Shown here in pieces: positions 1 through 9,707 of a stretch of DNA of 64,000 nt (its first letter is position 1; the number at the start of each line of letters is the position of its first letter). The translations under genes and the position numbers were made by a program. This stretch comes from Acidiferrobacteraceae bacterium (GTDB lineage Bacteria > Pseudomonadota > Gammaproteobacteria > Acidiferrobacterales > SZUA-150), in the NCBI GenBank assembly GCA_003228915.1, contig QIGL01000086.1, positions 22,381 through 86,380 of the forward strand, in the 5' to 3' direction. Under the pieces are notes generated by a model. That model searched no databases. It was not told the origin of the DNA and saw only the letters and a program-made list of their open reading frames with translations.

Positions 1-2301
1 GGAACCAGACATGCCTTCAGCATTTTCAAGAATTTTCATAGAATCCGTTAAGGTACTGCTATTCTCTTCAATGCCCGCTTCCAGCTCGGTTATGTCATTT
101 GAAATTTGCTTTAATCTGTTTTCAGTCTGGTTAGCCTGTGTTTCACTTTTGCCCAGCTCGGTTAATATTTCAGTTTTTTCCCGTGTCGTCTCTGTGATAA
201 TTCTTCGCAACCCGTCCCGGTTACTTTCCTGATCTTTAATGCTTGAGCGAAGTGATTCGAGACCTGCCTGTTGCTGATTGATTTTTGCTTCAAGACCACT
301 GAGCTTATTCTCGATAGACTCAATTTCCCGGGCCCTTGCCAGTATCCCTGCATTAGCCCCCTCCTGGTTAATCAAACTAATCCAGTTTGGTCCCAACAAA
401 ATACCTGATTTGGTAACTATCGATTCATCATCAGCCAGCCCGGATCTTCTTTTGTTAGCGTCAGCTAAATCTTCAGAAAATTTTACCTTGCCTGCCAACG
501 GGAACAAGTTAAATTCTGATTGAATTTTATTCAATAATGAATCGTCACTGACCGTATTTGTTGTTGTGGTATTTTCAAGCACTGCAAGACTGGATGTTTT
601 TAGCGATTCCAGATCCCCAATGACCGGGTCGAGTTTATCAACACAAACTGCTGCCAGCGCGTTTCCCAATACCCGTTCTACCGCTTTTTCCCAACCATCT
701 TCAACCTGAATCTTGCCTGATAGTCTTGGTTTGTCTGACAGGTTTTTATTGTTTAACCAGCTTGCCAGTTGGTCATCATGTTTGCCTTCTGCATTTTCCT
801 GCAACTCACGTAAAGAATCGAGCCTGGCGTTTAATCCATGTAACTCATTTTTCTCGACATCGAGCGCTGCACTACCGGAATCAACTGCTATTCGATTGTC
901 CTGAATTTCAGTTTCCAGTATTTCGAGCTGTTGTTCCGAGTCTGTACTTCGTTTACTTATTTCTTCTGCTGACTGGCGTAATTGATCAATATTTTCACGG
1001 GCCAATGCCTCATTGAGGGTCTGTTGTTCGGCCTGTAAACGATCCAGACGCACTTTTGATTGTTCTATTTGGGGTTTGATGTGCTGTATTCGTGATCTTT
1101 GAATTTCGGCGGCCTTTTCAGGCTCGGCGGCAATCTCACTAAACGACTGCCACTCTTGTTGCCAGTTTTGTAAATCAGATTCAGCTGTCGTCATCGCTTC
1201 AAGTGCTTCGTTAAACTGTTGTTGCACAGTTTCAATATTCGGTTTGGCGCTGGCAAGTTGCACTTCAAGATCAGATAACAGGGCTTTGTCCTCGGTTAAA
1301 TGATCGCTCGCCTCTTGCCATTGTTGATTAACCTGCTGCTGTTCGCGCTGCTGCTGGCGTCGCGTATCTTTAGTATGTTGAATTTTTTGTTCTATGTTAT
1401 TTACTTCTGCACCGACAGAATAAAATTTTTCCTGTACCTTGTTCAGGTTGTCATTGGCTTCAACCTGTTTTGCCCGTAATGATTCGATGCGGGCTTCGAT
1501 CTCTCGTTGGACGGCTAAAACTGCATCCAGCTCTGTTTGTTTTTGAGAAAGTATCTTATCATTTTCCTTGAGCTCGACTGAAAGTTTCTGCCAGCGCAAT
1601 ACAATCAGCTGCGCCTGCACCTGGCGTTCATTTTGTTTTAAGTCTTTATATTTTGCAGCTGCCTTTGACTGGCGCTGTAATTTTTGAATCTGGGTATCAA
1701 GTTCACGACGAATATCTTCTACCCGCTCAAGATTTTCCCGGGTATGGCGCATCCTGTTCTCGGTTTCACGACGACGCTCCTTGTACTTGGAAATACCGGC
1801 AGCCTCTTCAAAAAATCCCCTGAGATCTTCAGGTTTGGCTTCAATGATCCTGGTTACCATGCCTTGTTCAATAATTGAATAAGCGCGCGGCCCCAAACCA
1901 GTCCCCAGAAATAAATCGGTAATATCTTTTTTTCGGCAGCGGGTTTTATTGATTGAATAATCTGAATTGCCATCTCGGGAAGCCTCGCGCTTGATTGATA
2001 TTTCGGTAAACGAGGCATATTGACCTGGAGCTTTGCCTTGCTTGTTCTCAAAAATAAGCTCAACAGTGGCTTTACCCACTGGTTTGCGGGTATTGGATCC
2101 GCTGAAAATAACATCAGCCATGGAATCGCCACGCAGGTGTTTGGCAGAACTCTCGCCCATCACCCAACGCACCGCATCAATAATATTGGACTTGCCACAA
2201 CCATTTGGTCCAACAACACCTATCAAATTGGCGTTAATGGGAATGGTGGTAGGATCTACAAATGATTTAAAGCCGGCTAACTTGATTTTTTTCAGACGCA
2301 T
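1..2301 (-). CDS. smc: Chromosome segregation ATPase SMC (N-terminal ~767 codons; runs off the window start)
   Basis: Not in the ORF track because it has no stop in the window. Manual translation from ATG at 2301: MRLKKIKLAGFKSFVDPTTIPINANLIGVVGPNGCGKSNIIDAVRWVMGESSAKHLRG (Walker A of SMC), then coiled coil and a hinge-like segment (GWEKAVERVLG). Confidence 0.96.
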   Translation of the reverse strand, partial: MRLKKIKLAGFKSFVDPTTIPINANLIGVVGPNGCGKSNIIDAVRWVMGESSAKHLRGDSMADVIFSGSNTRKPVGKATVELIFENKQGKAPGQYASFTEISIKREASRDGNSDYSINKTRCRKKDITDLFLGTGLGPRAYSIIEQGMVTRIIEAKPEDLRGFFEEAAGISKYKERRRETENRMRHTRENLERVEDIRRELDTQIQKLQRQSKAAAKYKDLKQNERQVQAQLIVLRWQKLSVELKENDKILSQKQTELDAVLAVQREIEARIESLRAKQVEANDNLNKVQEKFYSVGAEVNNIEQKIQHTKDTRRQQQREQQQVNQQWQEASDHLTEDKALLSDLEVQLASAKPNIETVQQQFNEALEAMTTAESDLQNWQQEWQSFSEIAAEPEKAAEIQRSRIQHIKPQIEQSKVRLDRLQAEQQTLNEALARENIDQLRQSAEEISKRSTDSEQQLEILETEIQDNRIAVDSGSAALDVEKNELHGLNARLDSLRELQENAEGKHDDQLASWLNNKNLSDKPRLSGKIQVEDGWEKAVERVLGNALAAVCVDKLDPVIGDLESLKTSSLAVLENTTTTNTVSDDSLLNKIQSEFNLFPLAGKVKFSEDLADANKRRSGLADDESIVTKSGILLGPNWISLINQEGANAGILARAREIESIENKLSGLEAKINQQQAGLESLRSSIKDQESNRDGLRRIITETTREKTEILTELGKSETQANQTENRLKQISNDITELEAGIEENSSTLTDSMKILENAEGMSGS

Positions 2302-2394: not shown

Positions 2395-4458
2395 ATGCCT
2401 ACCAAGAAACAAAAGGGAGCAAAAAATGGTCCCGGCAAAACACTGGAATCGTTTGAAAACCCGCATCCTGAGCGGGATTATATTATTGAGATTGAAACCC
2501 CGGAATTTACCTGTGTCTGCCCCAAAACGGGCCAACCCGATTTTGCCACTATCCAGATAGAATATGTGCCTGACAAGGCCTGTATTGAACTCAAATCCCT
2601 GAAACTCTACTATTGGTCTTACCGGGATCAAGGGGCATTCCACGAGAAAGTAACCAATACTATTCTGGATGACCTGGTCGCTGCCATTGCACCCCGATAC
2701 TTACATATCAATGCGATATTTAATGTCAGGGGCGGCGTCTACACCACAATTCAGGCCGAATACCGGCGGCCCGGCTGGCAGCCATTGCCCCCGGCCCCGG
2801 ACCACTTGCCTAGAGAAAAACAGGATTTCCCCCATGACAGGCCAGACCAAGGGGTAAAACAAGACTCTGATACAAGCCAATCAAGTACAGCCCAGTCGGC
2901 AGGTGCATCAGGGCAAATGCCTGCCCAGACTACTCAAAGGCCTGCTAACGAAGCCATGACAACACGCCGCCAGCGTTTCCCCATGCTCGGCAGGGCCAGG
3001 AACAAAACCCCTGTCGCAGCACCAGAGGTGGTACCTGAAATCACGCCTACCCCAGATGCCTCACCGTCAGCGCCTGAGGCGTCGCCAAGCCCTGATCAAA
3101 CACAAGGCCCAGAGCATCAACCTACTAAAACATTAGATGTGCCTCCACCTGAAGAGGTATTCGCTCGTGATAACCCTGTTTACCTGGGAATTGATCTCGG
3201 GACCACTGGTTGCCGCATAGTGGCAGTGGATTACAGCGGTAACCAGATCACCCAGGCTGAGAGCCCCATTGCCAGCCCCGCACGTCGTGATAACCAGGTC
3301 ACCCAGGACCCTGACCAGTGGTGGCAGGCAGTCAGTGCCTGTCTTGATAATATTTTTCAGGTCGTCGAACCTAAACAAATACATTCTATTGCCGTTGATG
3401 GCACTTCCAACACTATCCTGCTTTGTGATAAACAGGGCGTGCCTGTGACCACGGGCCTGATGTATAACGACAGTCGCGCCCAGGCTGAAGCCGCCTTGAT
3501 TGCCAAGGTTGCAGACAAAAATTCCGGCGCCCATGGTGGTAGCAGTGGCCTGTCAAAATTACTCTGGCTGCAAAATAAAAAACTGGACAAAAAAGCAGCC
3601 TATGTACTGCACCAGTCAGACTGGATTACTGGCAAGCTCATGGGGAGCTGGGGGCACACAGATCACAATAATGCCCTAAAATTAGGATTTAACCCGGAAA
3701 CACTAAATTGGCCAGACTGGTTCCCGGCACTTAAAGTCGAGACCAGGTTATTACCTGAAGTCACCGCTCCCGGCGAAGAATTGGGGACCATAAGCCAGGA
3801 AATCGCCATGAGTTTTGGTATGGCTAACGACACGAATGTCGTGGCTGGCACCACTGACGGCACAGCTGCTTTTCTGGCAGCAGGCGCCACGACGCCGGGT
3901 CATGGGGTCACTTCCCTGGGCTCTACCCTGGTCATTAAATTACTCTCAAAAAAGCCTGTATTTTCACCTGAACATGGCGTTTACAGCCATCGCCTTGGCA
4001 ACCAGTGGTTAGCCGGCGGCGCCTCTAACAGCGGGGGGGCGGTTTTATTACAATATTTTAAACCTGAACAAATGACTGAAATGACACAAATGCTGGATCC
4101 CGGGAATCTTACCGGCCTTGATTATTATCCATTACCCGCCGTCGGTGAGCGATTTCCTGTTAATGATCCGGATATGGTGGCCAGGCTGGAGCCGCTGCCA
4201 AGCGACAGTGTTACCTTTTTTCAGGCCATGCTTGAGGGGATTGCCAACATCGAGGCCCAGGGATACAACCTGCTGGCAGACCTGGGCGCCCCCAAAGTAG
4301 TTGAGATTCGAACAACCGGTGGCGGCAGTCACAACGAACCCTGGCAACGTATTCGTGAAAATATCACCGGCGCAAAAATGATGCCGGCAAACTCTGATTT
4401 GTCAGCCTATGGCACGGCACTACTGGCGCTCGGCATTGTTAAGGAACGTTTCCAATAA
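2395..4458 (+). CDS. queF: Fusion: preQ0 reductase QueF (aa ~1-135), Pro/Gln/Ser/Thr-rich linker, FGGY-family carbohydrate kinase (aa ~260-687)
   Basis: QueF motifs [38 protein letters not shown] motifs [57 protein letters not shown]. One uninterrupted ORF. Confidence 0.88.
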
Positions 4459-4490
4459 AAAACGCCCCGAAAAATCGGGGCGTTTTTATT
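4454..4490. terminator. Bidirectional intrinsic terminator between the queF fusion and soxZ
   Basis: AATAAAAAACGCCCCGA-AAAA-TCGGGGCGTTTTTATT: GC stem with A and T tracts on either side, between convergent genes. Confidence 0.9.
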
Positions 4491-4532: not shown

Positions 4533-4850
4533 TCAGGCATCAACGACTGCACTAATTTCACCTGATTCGCCTTTGTTGTCTTTCCATGTAATTTTAATCT
4601 TGTCGCCATTCTTGGCCTTTGGTAAACGGAATCCCAGCAAGGGGTCTTCAGAAACAGCAATTCCCAGGTTCGCTTCCGCTGCCAGCTTGCCGTTGTGCAT
4701 GAGACTCATGTTTTGAATCCAGTGTGCCGGAATTACTTTTTTGGTTTTTTTGTCCTTACGCAAGCCTGTTTCCATTGGGTGGCTAACAAGAACCAGGACT
4801 TCAACCATGCCATCCTGAGTACGGGTACGAACTTTCATTTTACGAGCCAT
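4533..4850 (-). CDS. soxZ: Thiosulfate oxidation carrier complex protein SoxZ
   Basis: HPMETGLRKD...IPAHWIQ...AVSEDP...WKDNKG; directly downstream of soxY. Confidence 0.95.
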   Translation of the reverse strand: MARKMKVRTRTQDGMVEVLVLVSHPMETGLRKDKKTKKVIPAHWIQNMSLMHNGKLAAEANLGIAVSEDPLLGFRLPKAKNGDKIKITWKDNKGESGEISAVVDA

Positions 4851-4895
4851 TTAAACTTTCTCCTGTCCAGATAGTTTCTGTATTATGGTCTTGGC

Positions 4896-5369
4896 TTACC
4901 CGCCACAACCGCCAACAGTAACCTTGATTTTTGCTTTTGATGAATATAATTTTCCACCTGATTTAACGACAACCTGCACGTCCGATGTCTTCGCCATCTT
5001 GATGCGAGCGCTGAAGTAACCACCTGCGCTGGGCAGTTTAATGTTAGCTGTCAGGGGCATAGCGTTAGCTGTCACCATTATGGTAATTGCTTCAGGATTA
5101 GGGATTGTAGTTTTGATTGAAAAGGGAACAACAGAGCCATTTTCTGCCTGTATTGGTGCCCGGATTTTAACGTCCTTGCTTTCAATAACCTGGTCACTGC
5201 CATAGAGTGATTTTAAAACCAGACCCACTTTCTTGCTGCTAAATGCTTTTTTGGGCCAGGATGCTGCCATGGCGCTAACCGGGGTCAACAAACCAGCGGC
5301 AGCGGCAGCCAACACGGCACTACTGGCCACGGTACCCTTGATAAATTTCCTTCGATTGAGATTGCTCAC
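4896..5369 (-). CDS. soxY: Thiosulfate oxidation carrier protein SoxY
   Basis: Tat signal NRRKFIK, AENGSVVP, RIKMAKTS and the C-terminal swinging arm KVTVGGCGG. Confidence 0.96.
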   Translation of the reverse strand: MSNLNRRKFIKGTVASSAVLAAAAAGLLTPVSAMAASWPKKAFSSKKVGLVLKSLYGSDQVIESKDVKIRAPIQAENGSVVPFSIKTTIPNPEAITIMVTANAMPLTANIKLPSAGGYFSARIKMAKTSDVQVVVKSGGKLYSSKAKIKVTVGGCGG

Positions 5370-5720: not shown

Positions 5721-6446
5721 CTAATCTACTGTTAAAAAAACCAACGATGAAGTGAGCGATCCGTGATTAAAGTCACCGAGCAACAAGTCCTCATTGACAT
5801 CCCTGGCATGTACAACCCACGTATACCATCCGCCCGATTTTATTAATCCCTTCGGTAAACTATATTCATTATGCGGCAAGAGCGGCGAACTATGAATGAC
5901 CTTACCGCCTTCCCACATATCCCTGATTGTTACTTTATAATATCCTGCTTCGGGTATTTCTTGCCACGAAAGTGCCGTGGGTATTTGAATTATATCTAGT
6001 GAACTGGCAGGTGTAATATTTTTAGCGGCGGGCATTTTTTTTATATTAATGTAATCTTTTGCAATTATTGTTTCACCGCCAGTTAGTTGTATAACTGCCT
6101 TGTACCAGCCATCTTGCTCATTCGAGTTAGTCGCGAATCTAGCGAGATAAATTTGTTTGTTCCTGTTATTTTTTAATTTTTTAACTTTAAAACTTTCCAG
6201 GTTAAATGCTCCCACCTTGCTGTTATCTGGCCTGAAGACGGTAACACTTTCTATTTTTTCGTAATCAAGTGTTGAAAAAACCGCTAAAAAAATTAATGGT
6301 TGGCCAGGCCAGTTACAAATATGGAGATCAAAAAAACCGGCAGAAGTGTAATGGGGGTCATGTTCAAGTATTTCATTGTCACTATTAGTAATACAGGAGC
6401 TAACCAGGAATGCTGTGATTAACAAGATACATCCGATTTTTTTCAT
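5721..6446 (-). CDS. Hypothetical lipoprotein, beta-rich, with a possible fibronectin-III-like C-terminal half
   Basis: 241-aa ORF; signal peptide with lipobox LVSSC; LSW...YYKVTI...YTWVVHA pattern. Confidence 0.6.
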   Translation of the reverse strand: MKKIGCILLITAFLVSSCITNSDNEILEHDPHYTSAGFFDLHICNWPGQPLIFLAVFSTLDYEKIESVTVFRPDNSKVGAFNLESFKVKKLKNNRNKQIYLARFATNSNEQDGWYKAVIQLTGGETIIAKDYINIKKMPAAKNITPASSLDIIQIPTALSWQEIPEAGYYKVTIRDMWEGGKVIHSSPLLPHNEYSLPKGLIKSGGWYTWVVHARDVNEDLLLGDFNHGSLTSSLVFLTVD

Positions 6447-6622: not shown

Positions 6623-7066
6623 TCAGTTCTTTTTCAGACGCAAATTCGCATCCCGTAATCGACTGCTGATGCTACCCATAATCCCTAAACTTAATTCTGG
6701 ATAATTAATAATAAGCGCGCGTAATTTTGATTTCTCAAGAGCAAGCAGTCCGCTATCCTCCATTACATAAGCTGTTGCTGATCGGGGCTTATCGTCAAAC
6801 ATGCCCATTTCTCCGAAACATTCTTTGGCGCCCAGCTCGACAATAAATTCTTTCTTCCCTGGATTAGTCTCTAGCGAAATACCTATTTTTCCGTATTCGA
6901 TTATGTACATTCTGTCGCTTGGGTCATTAATATCAAATACTCTTTCGCCAATAAAACAGGCCTCTTCCTCCAGCTCATGGGCAACTACACGTAAATCTTC
7001 GGTCGATACCTTTGAAAATATCGGGGCTTGCTTAAGAAGTAATATGCGTTCAAATAGATCCGACAT
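6623..7066 (-). CDS. Stand-alone cyclic nucleotide-binding domain protein
   Basis: Phosphate-binding cassette FGEMGMFDDKPRSATA; N-terminal ERILLLKQAPIFS; no HTH. Confidence 0.88.
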   Translation of the reverse strand: MSDLFERILLLKQAPIFSKVSTEDLRVVAHELEEEACFIGERVFDINDPSDRMYIIEYGKIGISLETNPGKKEFIVELGAKECFGEMGMFDDKPRSATAYVMEDSGLLALEKSKLRALIINYPELSLGIMGSISSRLRDANLRLKKN

Positions 7067-7079
7067 TATTAAATTTTAC

Positions 7080-9707
7080 CTAAGAAAGTACTATTTGTTT
7101 TGTTACTACTTGCACCCAGGGATCCTGCCGCCGGGTGCACCAGTGGATAACGTCCTTAAAATCACCAAATATAGAATAACGCTTGTTTTTTTCGATACCA
7201 CCATCATATATCTGGCCCAGCATTTTGGATAAATGCCTGTTCTTTAGATGACGCATCACCTCGCAGGCATAGGCTATTTGCCGATTGTCACCGCTTTTAA
7301 GGCCTGCCCTTATAATATTAATAGTTGATTTGTCCTCCACATATTCCAGGGAGGCCAGTGATAAATCAACAAACTGTTGAATTCTCTCTTTAAGTATTGC
7401 CTGTAATAGTTGCATTGCAGTCTGCGATGTTAATACTTTGTTATCCGGAATAATCTTAATTGCCGCACGACATTTCAGCGCATCCTCAACTTTCGCTTCA
7501 GCTATTCTTTCGTATATGGCTACATCCGGCAATATTAGCCTCAGGCCATGAAGTGCAGATTGCTGTGCCCTGGGGGTGCACTTGTTATTAATAATCCATC
7601 CAAATAGCAAGCCAGCCGGATTACTGCTTCTGTTCTGCAATACCTCAATCGCACATTCTCTAACCCTGGGATGACTATCCTCCAGCATAATTAAAGCAGA
7701 GTCTTCGATGACAGCAGCCGGTAGATGAATGTGACAATCCACTGCTAATATCCGAATCTCCGGATCCTCTTGCTGCAACAGATTTTTTAACAAGGAAGAC
7801 TCATCATTATTTGTGATGACAGGCCAAATATACAGGACACGCAATACTGCTTTAACAATTTGACTGGAATCATGGAGTAAAAGTTTTTTTAATATAGGCC
7901 CATATTCTTCCAGGTAATGCTGCTCGAGTAATTGCAGGCCTGCCAGAATTGCTGTGCTGTCTTTACTTTCGAGGAGTGTCCCAAGAGCTTCTTTCGCTTT
8001 CGATTCCAGTGCAATTATTTTGTATTGGAATACGCCATAAATCCCTACTGAGCATAACCTGGGATTTTTATCATAAACGCAACTTTCAACATCGATCATT
8101 GCACGTGAACTTTTTTGATTAAACAATAAAGAATATATCGTCGCTTTCAGATGATTATCTGATCTTTTTAATATCACCCACAATTCTTCTTCTATTTCTC
8201 GCAGGTCAATATCAATAATTAATTTAAGAAGTCGATCACTAAGGGCATGGTCTGCAGTTCTAATTCTTTCAAGCACAACCTGCAAGACTTGCTCAGGATA
8301 TTCTTTAGCCAATAATTTTGCATATGAAACAGAGATATCGCTATCTTCCTGCACTACACCTTTTTTTAGCTGGTTGATTAATTCAATACTGCCCGTGTTT
8401 ACCCCCTCGGGAATAAATACTTTTGCGCGCAGTGTAGACAATATCGCATTCACATAAGCCGAATTAATCTTTATATTATAATACAGGTACACAAATACAG
8501 AAAATAACCCTGCGTATAAATATATTCTAAATTCTTCAAGGTTTTGCATAAACAACAGAAAACCACCTGTCACAATCAGTGCACATGGCAACACCAGGGC
8601 AAGTGATAACGCACGGGCCCTGCCCTGCATATAATCAGGCAATGCATTAAATAATAGATTTCTTACAGGGCTCCTTATGGCAGTCATAATAACTTCTTTG
8701 TTGAAACTGGCGAACAATGCAGCAGGAAATGTAAAACTCAAGATAAGAAATAAATAACTTGTCAGTGTCGTTACCGGAAATACCAGATTTATTTTTTTTA
8801 TACCAAATATGCGAAATAACTTACTGGTCAGGAATGCCTGGATTAATAAAGCAATAGTACCGTTTACTACTGTCAGTAAACCAAAAAATGTACTGAGCGA
8901 TTCTTCTGTACTGAAAGTCTCAGAATAAATACTATTTACCGTATAAGTTATAATGTAGAAACCAATCACGATAAAGAATAATGCCAATGATAAAGATCTG
9001 AGTAACCTGGAACGCTTTGCAAATTGCACTCCCTGGATTATCTGGTCTATCGAATAAGCCAGTCCTTTTCTGCCTTTCTTCCCTGATCTGAAATATGGTG
9101 AGACGCCGGACCGTCTGTGACGAATAATTATCAATGTTAAAGCAATTAATATAAGCGCCACCCATAACAGGATAAAATTCTGGACACCGATTACCGGCGA
9201 AGCAAAAGTTAAAGCCAGCCCACCAATTATTTTCCCGGATTGTGCCGCAGCAAAAATTAACGGGGTTAACCTTTTGGCCTGCATTGTTTCAAGATTCTGA
9301 TTCACATACAGGAGTGCATGCATCATTAATAATTCTGATGCGACTTCGTAAACAAGATAATATAACGGGTAGGCGTTACTCCACTGCAAGACACTAATCA
9401 GAACCCAGCACCCTAGCAATAATATTGTCGTTGCAGCAATGATAACTACAAAAAATTTTTCTGCTGCAATTCTGTCGGCAAACGCAGCATACATTGCGCT
9501 GACAATTGACAATAAAATACCGAAGGAAATGTACATTACGGGCAAATATTCAATGCCGTAACGTTTAAAAAATAGTGTATCAGCTGAACCACGACCAACA
9601 GCCAGCCCCGCCCCGATTAATAAAAACAATACGAGAAAGTATGCTGTTGAGTAGTGTTCATCTTCCTTGACTAAAAAGAATTTTGCCAGTCTGTCAGGCA
9701 GGTTCAT
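7080..9707 (-). CDS. NTT/TLC-like MFS transporter fused to HEAT repeats
   Basis: About 12 hydrophobic segments in aa 1-410 (DTLFFKRYGIEYLPVMY, QAKRLTPLI, QGRARA), then alpha-helical repeats (LLQQEDPEIRILAV, MLEDSHPRVRECAI). Confidence 0.75.
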   Translation of the reverse strand: MNLPDRLAKFFLVKEDEHYSTAYFLVLFLLIGAGLAVGRGSADTLFFKRYGIEYLPVMYISFGILLSIVSAMYAAFADRIAAEKFFVVIIAATTILLLGCWVLISVLQWSNAYPLYYLVYEVASELLMMHALLYVNQNLETMQAKRLTPLIFAAAQSGKIIGGLALTFASPVIGVQNFILLWVALILIALTLIIIRHRRSGVSPYFRSGKKGRKGLAYSIDQIIQGVQFAKRSRLLRSLSLALFFIVIGFYIITYTVNSIYSETFSTEESLSTFFGLLTVVNGTIALLIQAFLTSKLFRIFGIKKINLVFPVTTLTSYLFLILSFTFPAALFASFNKEVIMTAIRSPVRNLLFNALPDYMQGRARALSLALVLPCALIVTGGFLLFMQNLEEFRIYLYAGLFSVFVYLYYNIKINSAYVNAILSTLRAKVFIPEGVNTGSIELINQLKKGVVQEDSDISVSYAKLLAKEYPEQVLQVVLERIRTADHALSDRLLKLIIDIDLREIEEELWVILKRSDNHLKATIYSLLFNQKSSRAMIDVESCVYDKNPRLCSVGIYGVFQYKIIALESKAKEALGTLLESKDSTAILAGLQLLEQHYLEEYGPILKKLLLHDSSQIVKAVLRVLYIWPVITNNDESSLLKNLLQQEDPEIRILAVDCHIHLPAAVIEDSALIMLEDSHPRVRECAIEVLQNRSSNPAGLLFGWIINNKCTPRAQQSALHGLRLILPDVAIYERIAEAKVEDALKCRAAIKIIPDNKVLTSQTAMQLLQAILKERIQQFVDLSLASLEYVEDKSTINIIRAGLKSGDNRQIAYACEVMRHLKNRHLSKMLGQIYDGGIEKNKRYSIFGDFKDVIHWCTRRQDPWVQVVTKQIVLS

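What the first reader, a model, noticed from the sequence alone, without database searches (positions are those of the whole stretch)
2395..4458. QueF fused through a long disordered linker to a ribulokinase-like FGGY kinase
Seen: one 687-aa ORF with an intact-looking QueF (catalytic Cys in TCVCP, PDFA, ELKSLK, FHE), about 125 stop-free P/Q/S/T-rich codons, then a complete FGGY kinase and a single terminator. Known: short QueF is normally a ~130-160-aa stand-alone tunnel-fold enzyme of queuosine synthesis that forms homo-oligomeric rings. The kinase motifs resemble the cyanobacterial/plant D-ribulose-kinase subgroup. I know of no described fusion of the two. Inference: the fusion could couple tRNA Q-modification to pentose/NADPH status in an autotroph, recycle a sugar released in deazapurine nucleoside turnover, or use the QueF ring as a scaffold for tethered kinases. 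The linker holds one basic/hydrophobic island ([16 protein letters not shown]) that could be a docking or processing motif.
Basis: partly seen in the sequence, partly recalled or inferred. Interest (0 to 1): 0.72.

Follow-up and report, generated by a model that had tools for sequence, protein, structure and literature searches.

The report
QueF fused to Calvin-cycle-linked sugar kinase
In a group of sulfur bacteria, one real gene joins a tRNA-modification enzyme (QueF) through a floppy tether to a sugar kinase; the two were long-time neighbours that likely work separately, and the kinase occurs mostly in genomes with CO2-fixation genes, so it is likely a Calvin-cycle repair enzyme.

Summary
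The 687-aa ORF is real. All 120 listed homologues carry QueF plus both FGGY domains, catalytic residues are invariant, and independent contigs span the linker in frame. In the same order, 25 of 40 genomes are fused, 14 have the genes adjacent, 1 is unclear. Outside the order, 61 of 70 kinase loci lie right behind queF, none fused, inside an old smc-queF-kinase-cysZ-cbbY-dksA block. The two genes are lost independently. The kinase (SePSK/AtXK-1 type) follows RuBisCO: 66 of 71 kinase genomes have it, against 19 of 129 others (tree-aware test only suggestive, median p 0.06). It is also found beside, or fused to, HAD sugar phosphatases. Best reading: stop-codon loss joined two neighbours. QueF still makes preQ1, and the kinase likely re-phosphorylates stray pentuloses. 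A link to queuosine metabolism is not supported. I found no paper on the fusion, and three look-ups of this scan's notes found none on other DNA.

The parts
2395..4458 (+). Single ORF, QueF-linker-FGGY kinase fusion, 687 aa
2383..2388 (+). Shine-Dalgarno-like site before the ATG
   Evidence: sequence; duplex energy -4.6 kcal/mol with an anti-SD octamer
2395..2778 (+). Unimodular QueF (preQ0 reductase) domain, aa 1-128. C42, D49, E65, E84 correspond to B. subtilis C55, D62, E78, E97; C40 sits at the alternative 'backdoor' Cys53 position; V86 replaces Cys99
   Evidence: these residues (not V86) are invariant in 121 of 121
2782..2832 (+). Conserved QueF tail extension, PPP-x-x-LPRE-x-Q (aa 130-146); the PPP..LPR(E) part is also seen on the split QueFs of G002-G004
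2779..3177 (+). Disordered P/A/S/T/Q-rich linker, aa 129-261; 65-144 aa in the 114 of 121 homologues where it could be delimited, 57-141 aa in the order's genomes
   Evidence: dN/dS 0.21-0.49 in six pairs
2974..3000 (+). Conserved short linear motif R-F-[R/P]-M-L-x-R-x-R (aa 194-202)
   Evidence: 116 of 121 proteins; synonymous codon variation at R, F and L in 19 loci; column identity 93-97% at six positions against mostly under 50% around them
3178..4458 (+). FGGY kinase of the SePSK/AtXK-1 subgroup, aa 262-687. D267, T270, S338, K429, D488 correspond to SePSK D8, T11, S72, K163, D221; G489 replaces S222
4458..4487 (+). Intrinsic-terminator-like hairpin, 13 bp, between the fusion gene and the convergent soxZ
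1..2301 (-). smc (5' part), divergent neighbour that is conserved with queF across the class
4533..5369 (-). soxZ (4533-4850) and soxY (4896-5369), convergent neighbours (context only)

Best explanation
This is one gene encoding an intact QueF domain, a disordered tether and a SePSK/AtXK-1-type sugar kinase, likely formed when the stop codon between two old neighbouring genes was lost, with the two halves likely doing separate jobs. QueF likely still reduces preQ0 to preQ1 for tRNA queuosine: it is the genome's only QueF, and queC, queD, tgt, queA and queG are present. By analogy to B. subtilis QueF it would form a ten-subunit ring, so the long flexible tether would let up to ten 45-kDa kinases hang from it without blocking assembly (inferred). 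The kinase likely serves as a metabolite-repair enzyme of the Calvin cycle, putting a phosphate back on C5 of a stray pentulose. D-ribulose is the substrate shown in vitro for SePSK; a pentulose-1-phosphate is my alternative, because the family pairs with HAD phosphatases including CbbY. The RFRML motif is under protein-level selection and likely docks on a protein surface. My first guess is an acidic patch of the kinase itself, my second a Calvin-cycle enzyme. The motif is not needed to keep the fusion.
For: SHOWN. (1) One ORF, conserved. (2) Both domains are under strong purifying selection: dN/dS G000 vs G001 is 0.04 for QueF, 0.05 for the kinase and 0.49 for the linker; kinase 0.05-0.16 in 6 pairs. 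(3) Only QueF copy in the genome; QueC, Tgt, QueA, QueG and QueD families found. (4) Old adjacency: 61 of 70 class-level kinase loci have queF directly upstream on the same strand and 0 of 70 are fused; in 11 of the 61 the two frames are one in-frame stop apart. (5) Independent loss within the same block; 19 changes of kinase state on a 79-row SMC tree in which most rows keep queF. (6) Kinase and RuBisCO in 200 genomes: both 66, kinase only 5, RuBisCO only 19, neither 110; among 115 short-QueF genomes 64, 3, 16, 32. In independent pairs RuBisCO goes the same way in 5.5 of 10 and the opposite way in 0.1. (7) A CbbY homologue (best PDB hit CbbY 4UAR, E 3e-55) lies in the fetched stretch of 22 of 70 kinase loci against 1 of 28 kinase-less queF loci; 2 of 14 long kinase relatives scanned are kinase-HAD fusions; 4 of 4 plasmid homologues opened lie between a class II aldolase and a HAD in sugar/polyol clusters without queF. 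(8) Single origin is the simpler history: the fused proteins form one 50%-identity cluster among the best 150, need 2 state changes on the tree, and the split kinases of G002 and G003 keep the fused clade's G489, A496 and E599. FROM PAPERS: SePSK phosphorylates D-ribulose in vitro (PMC4880283, passages and section 8); unimodular QueF is a homodecamer joined through its C-terminal tails (PMC5372742, passages); CbbY removes the 1-phosphate of XuBP (PMC10212915, passages). INFERRED: ring assembly of the fusion, the real substrate, the repair role, the motif's partner.
Against: The tree-aware test is not significant (median p 0.0625, range 0.016-0.22), and the raw table overstates because kin are not independent. 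19 of 85 RuBisCO genomes lack the kinase, and 5 of 71 kinase genomes lack RuBisCO; 9 of 41 genomes of the order have the kinase but no RuBisCO match, among them 4 relatives at 95-98% completeness. G000 itself has no RuBisCO match. It has PRK and a CbbY homologue, and its sister G001 has cbbM-cbbQ-cbbO beside a gene whose G000 orthologue lies about 0.8 kb from a contig end, so an assembly gap is likely but not shown. AtXK-1 is barely stimulated by D-ribulose (PMC4880283), so the true substrate is uncertain. The fused clade changed a sugar-pocket residue (S222 to G in 120 of 121, against S in 68 of 70 unfused), so its specificity may differ. queF-kinase adjacency has survived in 61 of 70 loci while the downstream genes vary more (cysZ 40 of 70), which leaves room for some functional tie. 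8 of 10 class-level loci that pair these genes with gluQ or similar were not tested for shared regulation; in all, gluQ appears in 8 of 70 kinase loci. In G000 the cbbY homologue is on another contig.
Confidence: 0.6

Rival explanations
1. The fusion is an adaptation that uses the QueF ring as a ten-armed scaffold. The RFRML motif, displayed ten times, would bind Calvin-cycle machinery (for example PRK, which consumes the kinase's likely product Ru5P) or the membrane by avidity, concentrating the repair kinase where stray pentuloses arise.
For: The motif is nearly invariant inside a linker that changes fast in length and sequence. Among the order's fused genomes, 15 of the 17 relatives with the intact motif have RuBisCO, against 4 of the 8 with a lost or degenerate motif (my count). 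The fusion has been kept across seven families.
Against: 7 of 25 fused genomes lack the motif and 1 has it degenerate, yet they stay fused. The motif-less rows are mostly one clade, so the RuBisCO trend is one or two events. 14 genomes of the order, and all 70 class-level loci, manage with separate genes. No partner was identified.
Confidence: 0.2
2. The kinase is metabolically tied to queuosine or pterin chemistry: it would phosphorylate a polyol side chain or sugar from that pathway, and fusion would couple the two steps.
For: Very stable adjacency (61 of 70) followed by fusion. gluQ lies in the same old block in 8 of 70 loci. The SePSK pocket held two ribulose molecules, which could mean a larger true substrate (PMC4880283 section 8; the authors say the second site may be an artefact). 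The pocket residue S222 became G in the fused clade.
Against: 48 sampled genomes keep short QueF without the kinase, and the kinase follows RuBisCO within QueF-bearing genomes. The kinase occurs without queF in 2 smc loci and in 4 of 4 plasmid sugar clusters. No kinase of this subgroup was found in 50,697 phage records; the best of 13 hits is 25% identical. From my own knowledge, no step of the GTP-to-queuosine route releases a free pentulose. gluQ also appears in 7 of 28 kinase-less loci.
Confidence: 0.1
3. The gene is fused but the products are separate: the motif would be a protease site or an internal start that frees the kinase from QueF.
For: The Met of the motif is almost invariant (114 of 116). 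The distance from motif to kinase is tighter (interquartile 40-47 aa) than from QueF to motif (50-76 aa). Fissions appear to have happened in G002 and G003, and G003 keeps an RFRQL variant on its QueF tail.
Against: R, F and L around the Met are conserved as amino acids with mixed codons. The motif ATG has no consistent Shine-Dalgarno: median -1.9 against -3.5 kcal/mol for the true starts in 17 loci, and none in the window itself. It is, however, -3.7 or stronger in 6 of 17, and 5 true starts also score as absent, so this test is weak. No conserved start lies near the kinase core.
Confidence: 0.08
4. The fusion is an assembly or gene-calling artefact.
For: None found.
Against: 120 of 120 listed homologues from several public sources, 25 fused genomes, in-frame-only indel in independent contigs, linker dN/dS below 1 in 6 of 6 pairs.
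Confidence: 0.01

Closest known systems
Unimodular (YkvM-type) QueF, B. subtilis, PDB 4F8B/5UDG/4FGC; NCBIfam TIGR03139
   Same: Single T-fold domain; catalytic Cys, Asp, QueF motif Glu and substrate Glu all present.
   Different: Carries a 560-aa C-terminal extension (tether plus kinase); uses the Cys53-type backdoor cysteine instead of Cys99. A November 2026 QueF review (PMC13740343; five passages from a term search) has no occurrence of 'kinase' or 'fused' in its main text.
SePSK (Synechococcus elongatus) and AtXK-1 (Arabidopsis plastid), PDB 5HTN/5HV7/5HTR
   Same: Best sequence match (E 3e-95, 6e-91) and best fold match (40% identity, TM 0.84-0.87 to target); D8, T11, S72, K163 and D221 conserved.
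   Different: Those are stand-alone proteins. Here the kinase is tethered to QueF, and the ribulose-contacting S222 is G. The paper states that the physiological function of both is unknown (PMC4880283 abstract).
CbbY XuBP phosphatase (Calvin-cycle metabolite repair)
   Same: Proposed role class (repair of stray sugar phosphates); a CbbY homologue is a frequent neighbour of the unfused kinase.
   Different: CbbY is a phosphatase with a shown in-planta role (PMC10212915); the kinase's role is only inferred from co-occurrence.
Rhizobial aldolase-kinase-HAD pentitol module (lalA-rbtB-rbtC of S. meliloti)
   Same: Plasmid homologues (41-50% identical) lie between a class II aldolase and a HAD hydrolase in sugar/polyol clusters. 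PMC3599248 (passages) describes a lalA-rbtBC sub-operon for adonitol and L-arabitol.
   Different: Catabolic context with transporters, no queF. That these homologues are RbtB is my recall of the gene order; the passages I saw do not give RbtB's enzyme class, and I did not test it.

Membership tests
Unimodular QueF (YkvM type) | Catalytic Cys55, Asp62, QueF motif with Glu78, and Glu97 in one T-fold (PMC5372742) | tested here: met
   C42, D49, E65 (ELKSLK), E84 by alignment to 4F8B; each 121 of 121
Unimodular QueF (YkvM type) | Score over the curated TIGR03139 cut-off | tested here: met
   173.4 bits against 86.9
Unimodular QueF (YkvM type) | Stand-alone chain under 200 aa | tested here: not met
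   687-aa fusion; only the N-terminal 128 aa are QueF. It is filed as a fused variant, not a canonical member
Unimodular QueF (YkvM type) | Homodecamer of two pentamers | not tested
   Inferred by homology only; the one complex job held three QueF copies and scored only the linker peptide
Unimodular QueF (YkvM type) | NADPH-dependent reduction of preQ0 to preQ1 | not testable with these tools
   Needs an assay; sole QueF of a genome with the rest of the pathway
SePSK/AtXK-1 subgroup of FGGY kinases | Closest sequence and fold match, short two-domain FGGY fold of about 430 aa | tested here: met
   E 3e-95 against 6e-23 for the next family; Foldseek ranks 1-8 are SePSK/AtXK-1
SePSK/AtXK-1 subgroup of FGGY kinases | Catalytic D8, T11, D221 and pocket S72, K163 | tested here: met
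   D267 121/121, T270 T91+S30, S338 121/121, D488 121/121; K429 invariant in 108 rows; mapping read from the alignment
SePSK/AtXK-1 subgroup of FGGY kinases | Ribulose-contacting Ser222 | tested here: not met
   G489 in 120 of 121 fused proteins (1 not parsed); S in 68 of 70 unfused class-level kinases
SePSK/AtXK-1 subgroup of FGGY kinases | D-ribulose kinase activity | not testable with these tools
   Shown in vitro for SePSK, weak for AtXK-1 (PMC4880283)
Xylulokinase XylB, L-ribulokinase AraB, TIGR01315 pentulose kinase | Score over the curated NCBIfam cut-offs | tested here: not met
   165.5 against 380 (XylB), 58.6 against 428 (PRK04123), 30.1 against 409 (TIGR01315)

The most novel reading that the evidence does not exclude
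A tRNA-modification enzyme's ten-subunit ring has been co-opted as a multivalent scaffold that carries, and through a dedicated RFRML docking motif positions or regulates, an unrecognised Calvin-cycle repair kinase. That kinase, shared with cyanobacteria and chloroplasts, acts on pentulose-1-phosphates and hands the bisphosphate to CbbY or RuBisCO.
Probability: 0.12. Interest if true: 0.8.

Novelty: new variant of a known kind. Interest (0 to 1): 0.47.

Why it matters
The fusion itself is a lineage-wide curiosity that databases already hold under one-domain names, and the ESM Atlas has clusters with this architecture. Two by-products are more useful. First, the SePSK/AtXK-1 kinase family, present in cyanobacteria and chloroplasts with no known physiological role, gains genomic evidence for a Calvin-cycle repair function and a concrete substrate list to test. 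Second, a sharply conserved seven-residue motif in a disordered bacterial linker, on a probable decamer, is an easy handle for finding an unknown interaction. For QueF biocatalysis it shows that the C-terminus can carry a large natural passenger.

Tried and rejected
Single-sequence AlphaFold2 model: pLDDT 33, discarded; redone with a 108-row alignment, where the motif stayed at pLDDT about 30. Complex prediction of the motif peptide with three QueF copies plus the kinase: no verdict, score 0.01. Long 'open frames' of 566-631 aa in the class search first looked like further independent fusions; cutting them out showed a stop between the genes in every case, so that reading was dropped. Search for shorter proteins matching the linker region: 0 of 291 candidates scored. 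Motif scan of long frames in the own genome: one other match, judged unrelated. No RNA holder listed among sequencing runs. Phage collection: only distant FGGY kinases. QueF dN/dS values for 2 of the 6 pairs (G030/G021, G013/G036) are unusable because the start was mis-picked. The careful SMC tree did not finish; the quick tree was used, and the seven long-branched f4 rows were left out of the concatenated tree. No one-clade test was run. Literature searches with no paper on the fusion: QueF+fusion+kinase+FGGY, 0 papers; four of queF/fused/queuosine/carbohydrate kinase/Acidiferrobacter, 0 papers; a looser search, 134 papers, of which I saw the 15 listed titles and abstract starts, none on this. 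The library lacks most subscription papers, and I read no supplements. Resemblance of the motif to membrane-targeting helices, CsoS2 RuBisCO-binding peptides or Tat signals was considered from recall only and not tested.

Full report
1. Observation. The window holds one 687-aa ORF at 2395-4458, divergent from smc and convergent on soxZ-soxY, with a Shine-Dalgarno-like site before the ATG and one strong terminator at 4458-4487. Residues 16-125 pass the curated cut-off for short QueF; 262-679 are FGGY_N plus FGGY_C. A protein search gave 531 hits; all 120 listed carry the three domains, at 606-690 aa, and sources name some as Sulfuricaulis limicola, Sulfuricaulis sp. or Acidiferrobacterales bacterium, so the order is likely Acidiferrobacterales (inferred). 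Contigs from 3 of 4 laid runs span the linker; the only indel listed inside the ORF is an in-frame 9-nt deletion. The matching runs are mostly hydrothermal-vent and marine metagenomes.

2. Both halves look active. Alignment to B. subtilis QueF maps C42, D49, E65 and E84 to the family-defining C55, D62, E78 and E97 (PMC5372742, passages); C40 sits at the alternative protective Cys53 position. All are invariant in 121 of 121 proteins. The kinase matches AtXK-1 and SePSK far better than any other solved kinase and keeps the residues that PMC4880283 (passages and section 8) shows or proposes for catalysis and sugar binding, except Ser222, which is Gly in the fused clade. dN/dS is 0.04-0.10 for QueF (4 usable pairs of 6), 0.05-0.16 for the kinase and 0.21-0.49 for the linker (6 pairs). 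The fusion is the genome's only QueF; QueC, Tgt, QueA, QueG and QueD families are present and a QueE-like frame lies beside queC (label from recall). The only other FGGY_N match is a distant 496-aa protein.

3. Origin. Of 40 genomes of the order, 25 are fused, 14 have queF and the kinase adjacent but separate, and 1 is broken by a contig end. In a sample of 200 genomes of the class, 71 have the kinase (one of them, G010, is of the same order and fused). I cut out the other 70: 52 have queF within 150 nt upstream, 9 within 151-610 nt, 9 have no queF in the fetched stretch (one of these starts at a contig end), and none is fused. In 11 of the 61 the two reading frames are one in-frame stop apart, so a single change could fuse them. 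The pair sits in an old block: ligA-zipA-smc, then queF-kinase-cysZ, aminotransferase, cbbY, dksA-gluQ. On trees of SMC, of the kinase and of the three proteins together, split families f4 and f5 fall outside a clade that holds all fused rows plus three split rows. Two changes suffice. One fusion followed by fission is the simpler reading, because the motif is shared across the clade, G003 keeps it on its QueF tail, and G002 and G003 keep the fused clade's kinase signatures. Two separate fusions are not excluded, and G003 is a 71%-complete assembly whose split could be an error.

4. What the kinase follows. RuBisCO (form I/II, E under 1e-90) is in 85 of the 200 genomes: both genes 66, kinase only 5, RuBisCO only 19, neither 110. 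Among the 115 genomes with short QueF the counts are 64, 3, 16 and 32. One row of these counts (G077) is an unpublished genome; it does not affect the result. I cut out 28 of the 48 kinase-less queF loci: 24 still have smc upstream and 14 have cysZ downstream, so the kinase was lost from between them; 2 loci show smc-kinase with no queF. On a 79-row SMC tree (55 with, 24 without the kinase) RuBisCO goes with the kinase in 5.5 of 10 independent pairs, against it in 0.1, and does not differ in 4.4; median p 0.0625. This is suggestive, not proof. A CbbY homologue is in 22 of 70 kinase stretches but 1 of 28 kinase-less ones. Among the best 150 kinase representatives the QueF fusion is one cluster; of 14 long ones scanned, 2 are kinase-HAD fusions and none has QueF. 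Four plasmid homologues opened (of 48 records) all read aldolase-kinase-HAD in sugar clusters. So the recurring partner of this kinase family is a sugar phosphatase, and its main host trait is the Calvin cycle. G000 has PRK and CbbY but no RuBisCO match; the sister genome has cbbR-cbbM-cbbQ-cbbO next to a gene whose G000 orthologue ends a contig, so a gap is likely. In the order, 32 of 41 genomes have RuBisCO.

5. The linker. It is disordered in the model, 65-144 aa long and 24% proline. It holds two conserved spots: a PPP-x-x-LPRE tail next to QueF and the motif R-F-[R/P]-M-L-x-R (116 of 121; a further protein has I for L), conserved as amino acids with mixed codons. The motif is missing in 7 and degenerate in 1 of the 25 fused genomes, so the fusion does not depend on it. 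It lies at a tighter distance from the kinase than from QueF. Kinases of motif-bearing fusions tend to be more acidic (net charge -16 to +4, 18 rows that include G038 and G040) than motif-less ones (0 to +4, 7 rows), and E558 goes with the motif (15 of 16 against 1 of 7). These hints point to docking on the kinase, but the motif-less rows are mostly one clade. An internal start is not favoured, though the test is weak.

6. Mechanism. Shown: one conserved gene, two intact domains, descent from an adjacent gene pair, independent loss of the two genes elsewhere, co-occurrence of the kinase with RuBisCO and CbbY, a selected motif. Inferred: QueF makes preQ1 as a decamer whose C-terminal tails (PMC5372742) now carry tethered kinases; the kinase returns stray D-ribulose or a pentulose-1-phosphate to the Calvin cycle, next to the known CbbY repair step (PMC10212915, passages); the motif docks on a protein. 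I give this 0.6, an adaptive scaffold 0.2, true coupling to queuosine or pterin chemistry 0.1, and processing into two proteins 0.08.

7. Novelty. Both domains are known families; the architecture is in public databases under one-domain names and forms Atlas clusters of 76 and 77 members. Three literature searches, a term search of a 2026 QueF review and three look-ups of this scan's notes found no description. A search for papers on the kinase subgroup listed 12, and only PMC4880283 is about it by title and abstract start. Verdict: a new variant of known kinds, real and undescribed as far as I could search, most likely a fusion of neighbours. Its main value is the testable lead on the kinase family's function and the conserved motif.

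Noticed in passing
P0133, P0148: Natural fusions of this kinase subgroup to a C-terminal HAD hydrolase (about 700 aa), matching the kinase-HAD gene pair of rhizobial plasmids.
   Followed up: partly
L133-L136 (plasmids of Burkholderia sp., Aminobacter, Shinella, Sinorhizobium): The kinase homologue lies between a class II aldolase and a TIGR01459 HAD in sugar/polyol clusters; possibly the lalA-rbtB-rbtC module (recalled, untested).
   Followed up: partly
G000 contig C75 end; L139:573-6866: The cbbR-cbbM-cbbQ-cbbO block of the sister genome is not in G000, whose matching contig ends about 0.8 kb before the neighbouring MCP gene; likely an assembly gap. A 123-aa ORF (GxxExxY-like, label recalled) sits between cbbM and cbbQ in the sister.
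   Followed up: partly
G000 contig C34:15198-24164: gluQ, dksA, cbbY, the aminotransferase and queD lie together here, so the downstream half of the old block has moved away from the fusion gene but is near another queuosine gene.
   Followed up: partly
G000 contig C29:178-1188: The QueG match has one TGA inside the aligned stretch although a 374-aa frame is open; probably the gene's end, not checked.
   Followed up: no
L015 (G004): G004 groups in family f1 by SMC, but its kinase has the unfused, outgroup-type residues and branches outside the clade; possible replacement by transfer.
   Followed up: partly
L023 (G015), L037 (G037): The kinase match is split over two reading frames; frameshift or sequencing error.
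   Followed up: no
window 5721-6446 (-): 241-aa ORF with a lipoprotein-like N-terminus and no Pfam match.
   Followed up: no
window 6623-9707 (-): An 875-aa membrane protein with HEAT repeats followed by a 147-aa stand-alone cNMP-binding protein, downstream of an RND pump pair.
   Followed up: no
P0134, P0221: Other long kinase relatives: one with a 110-aa hydrophobic N-terminal extension, one eukaryote-like with a Tudor-like N-terminal part; may be gene-calling joins.
   Followed up: no
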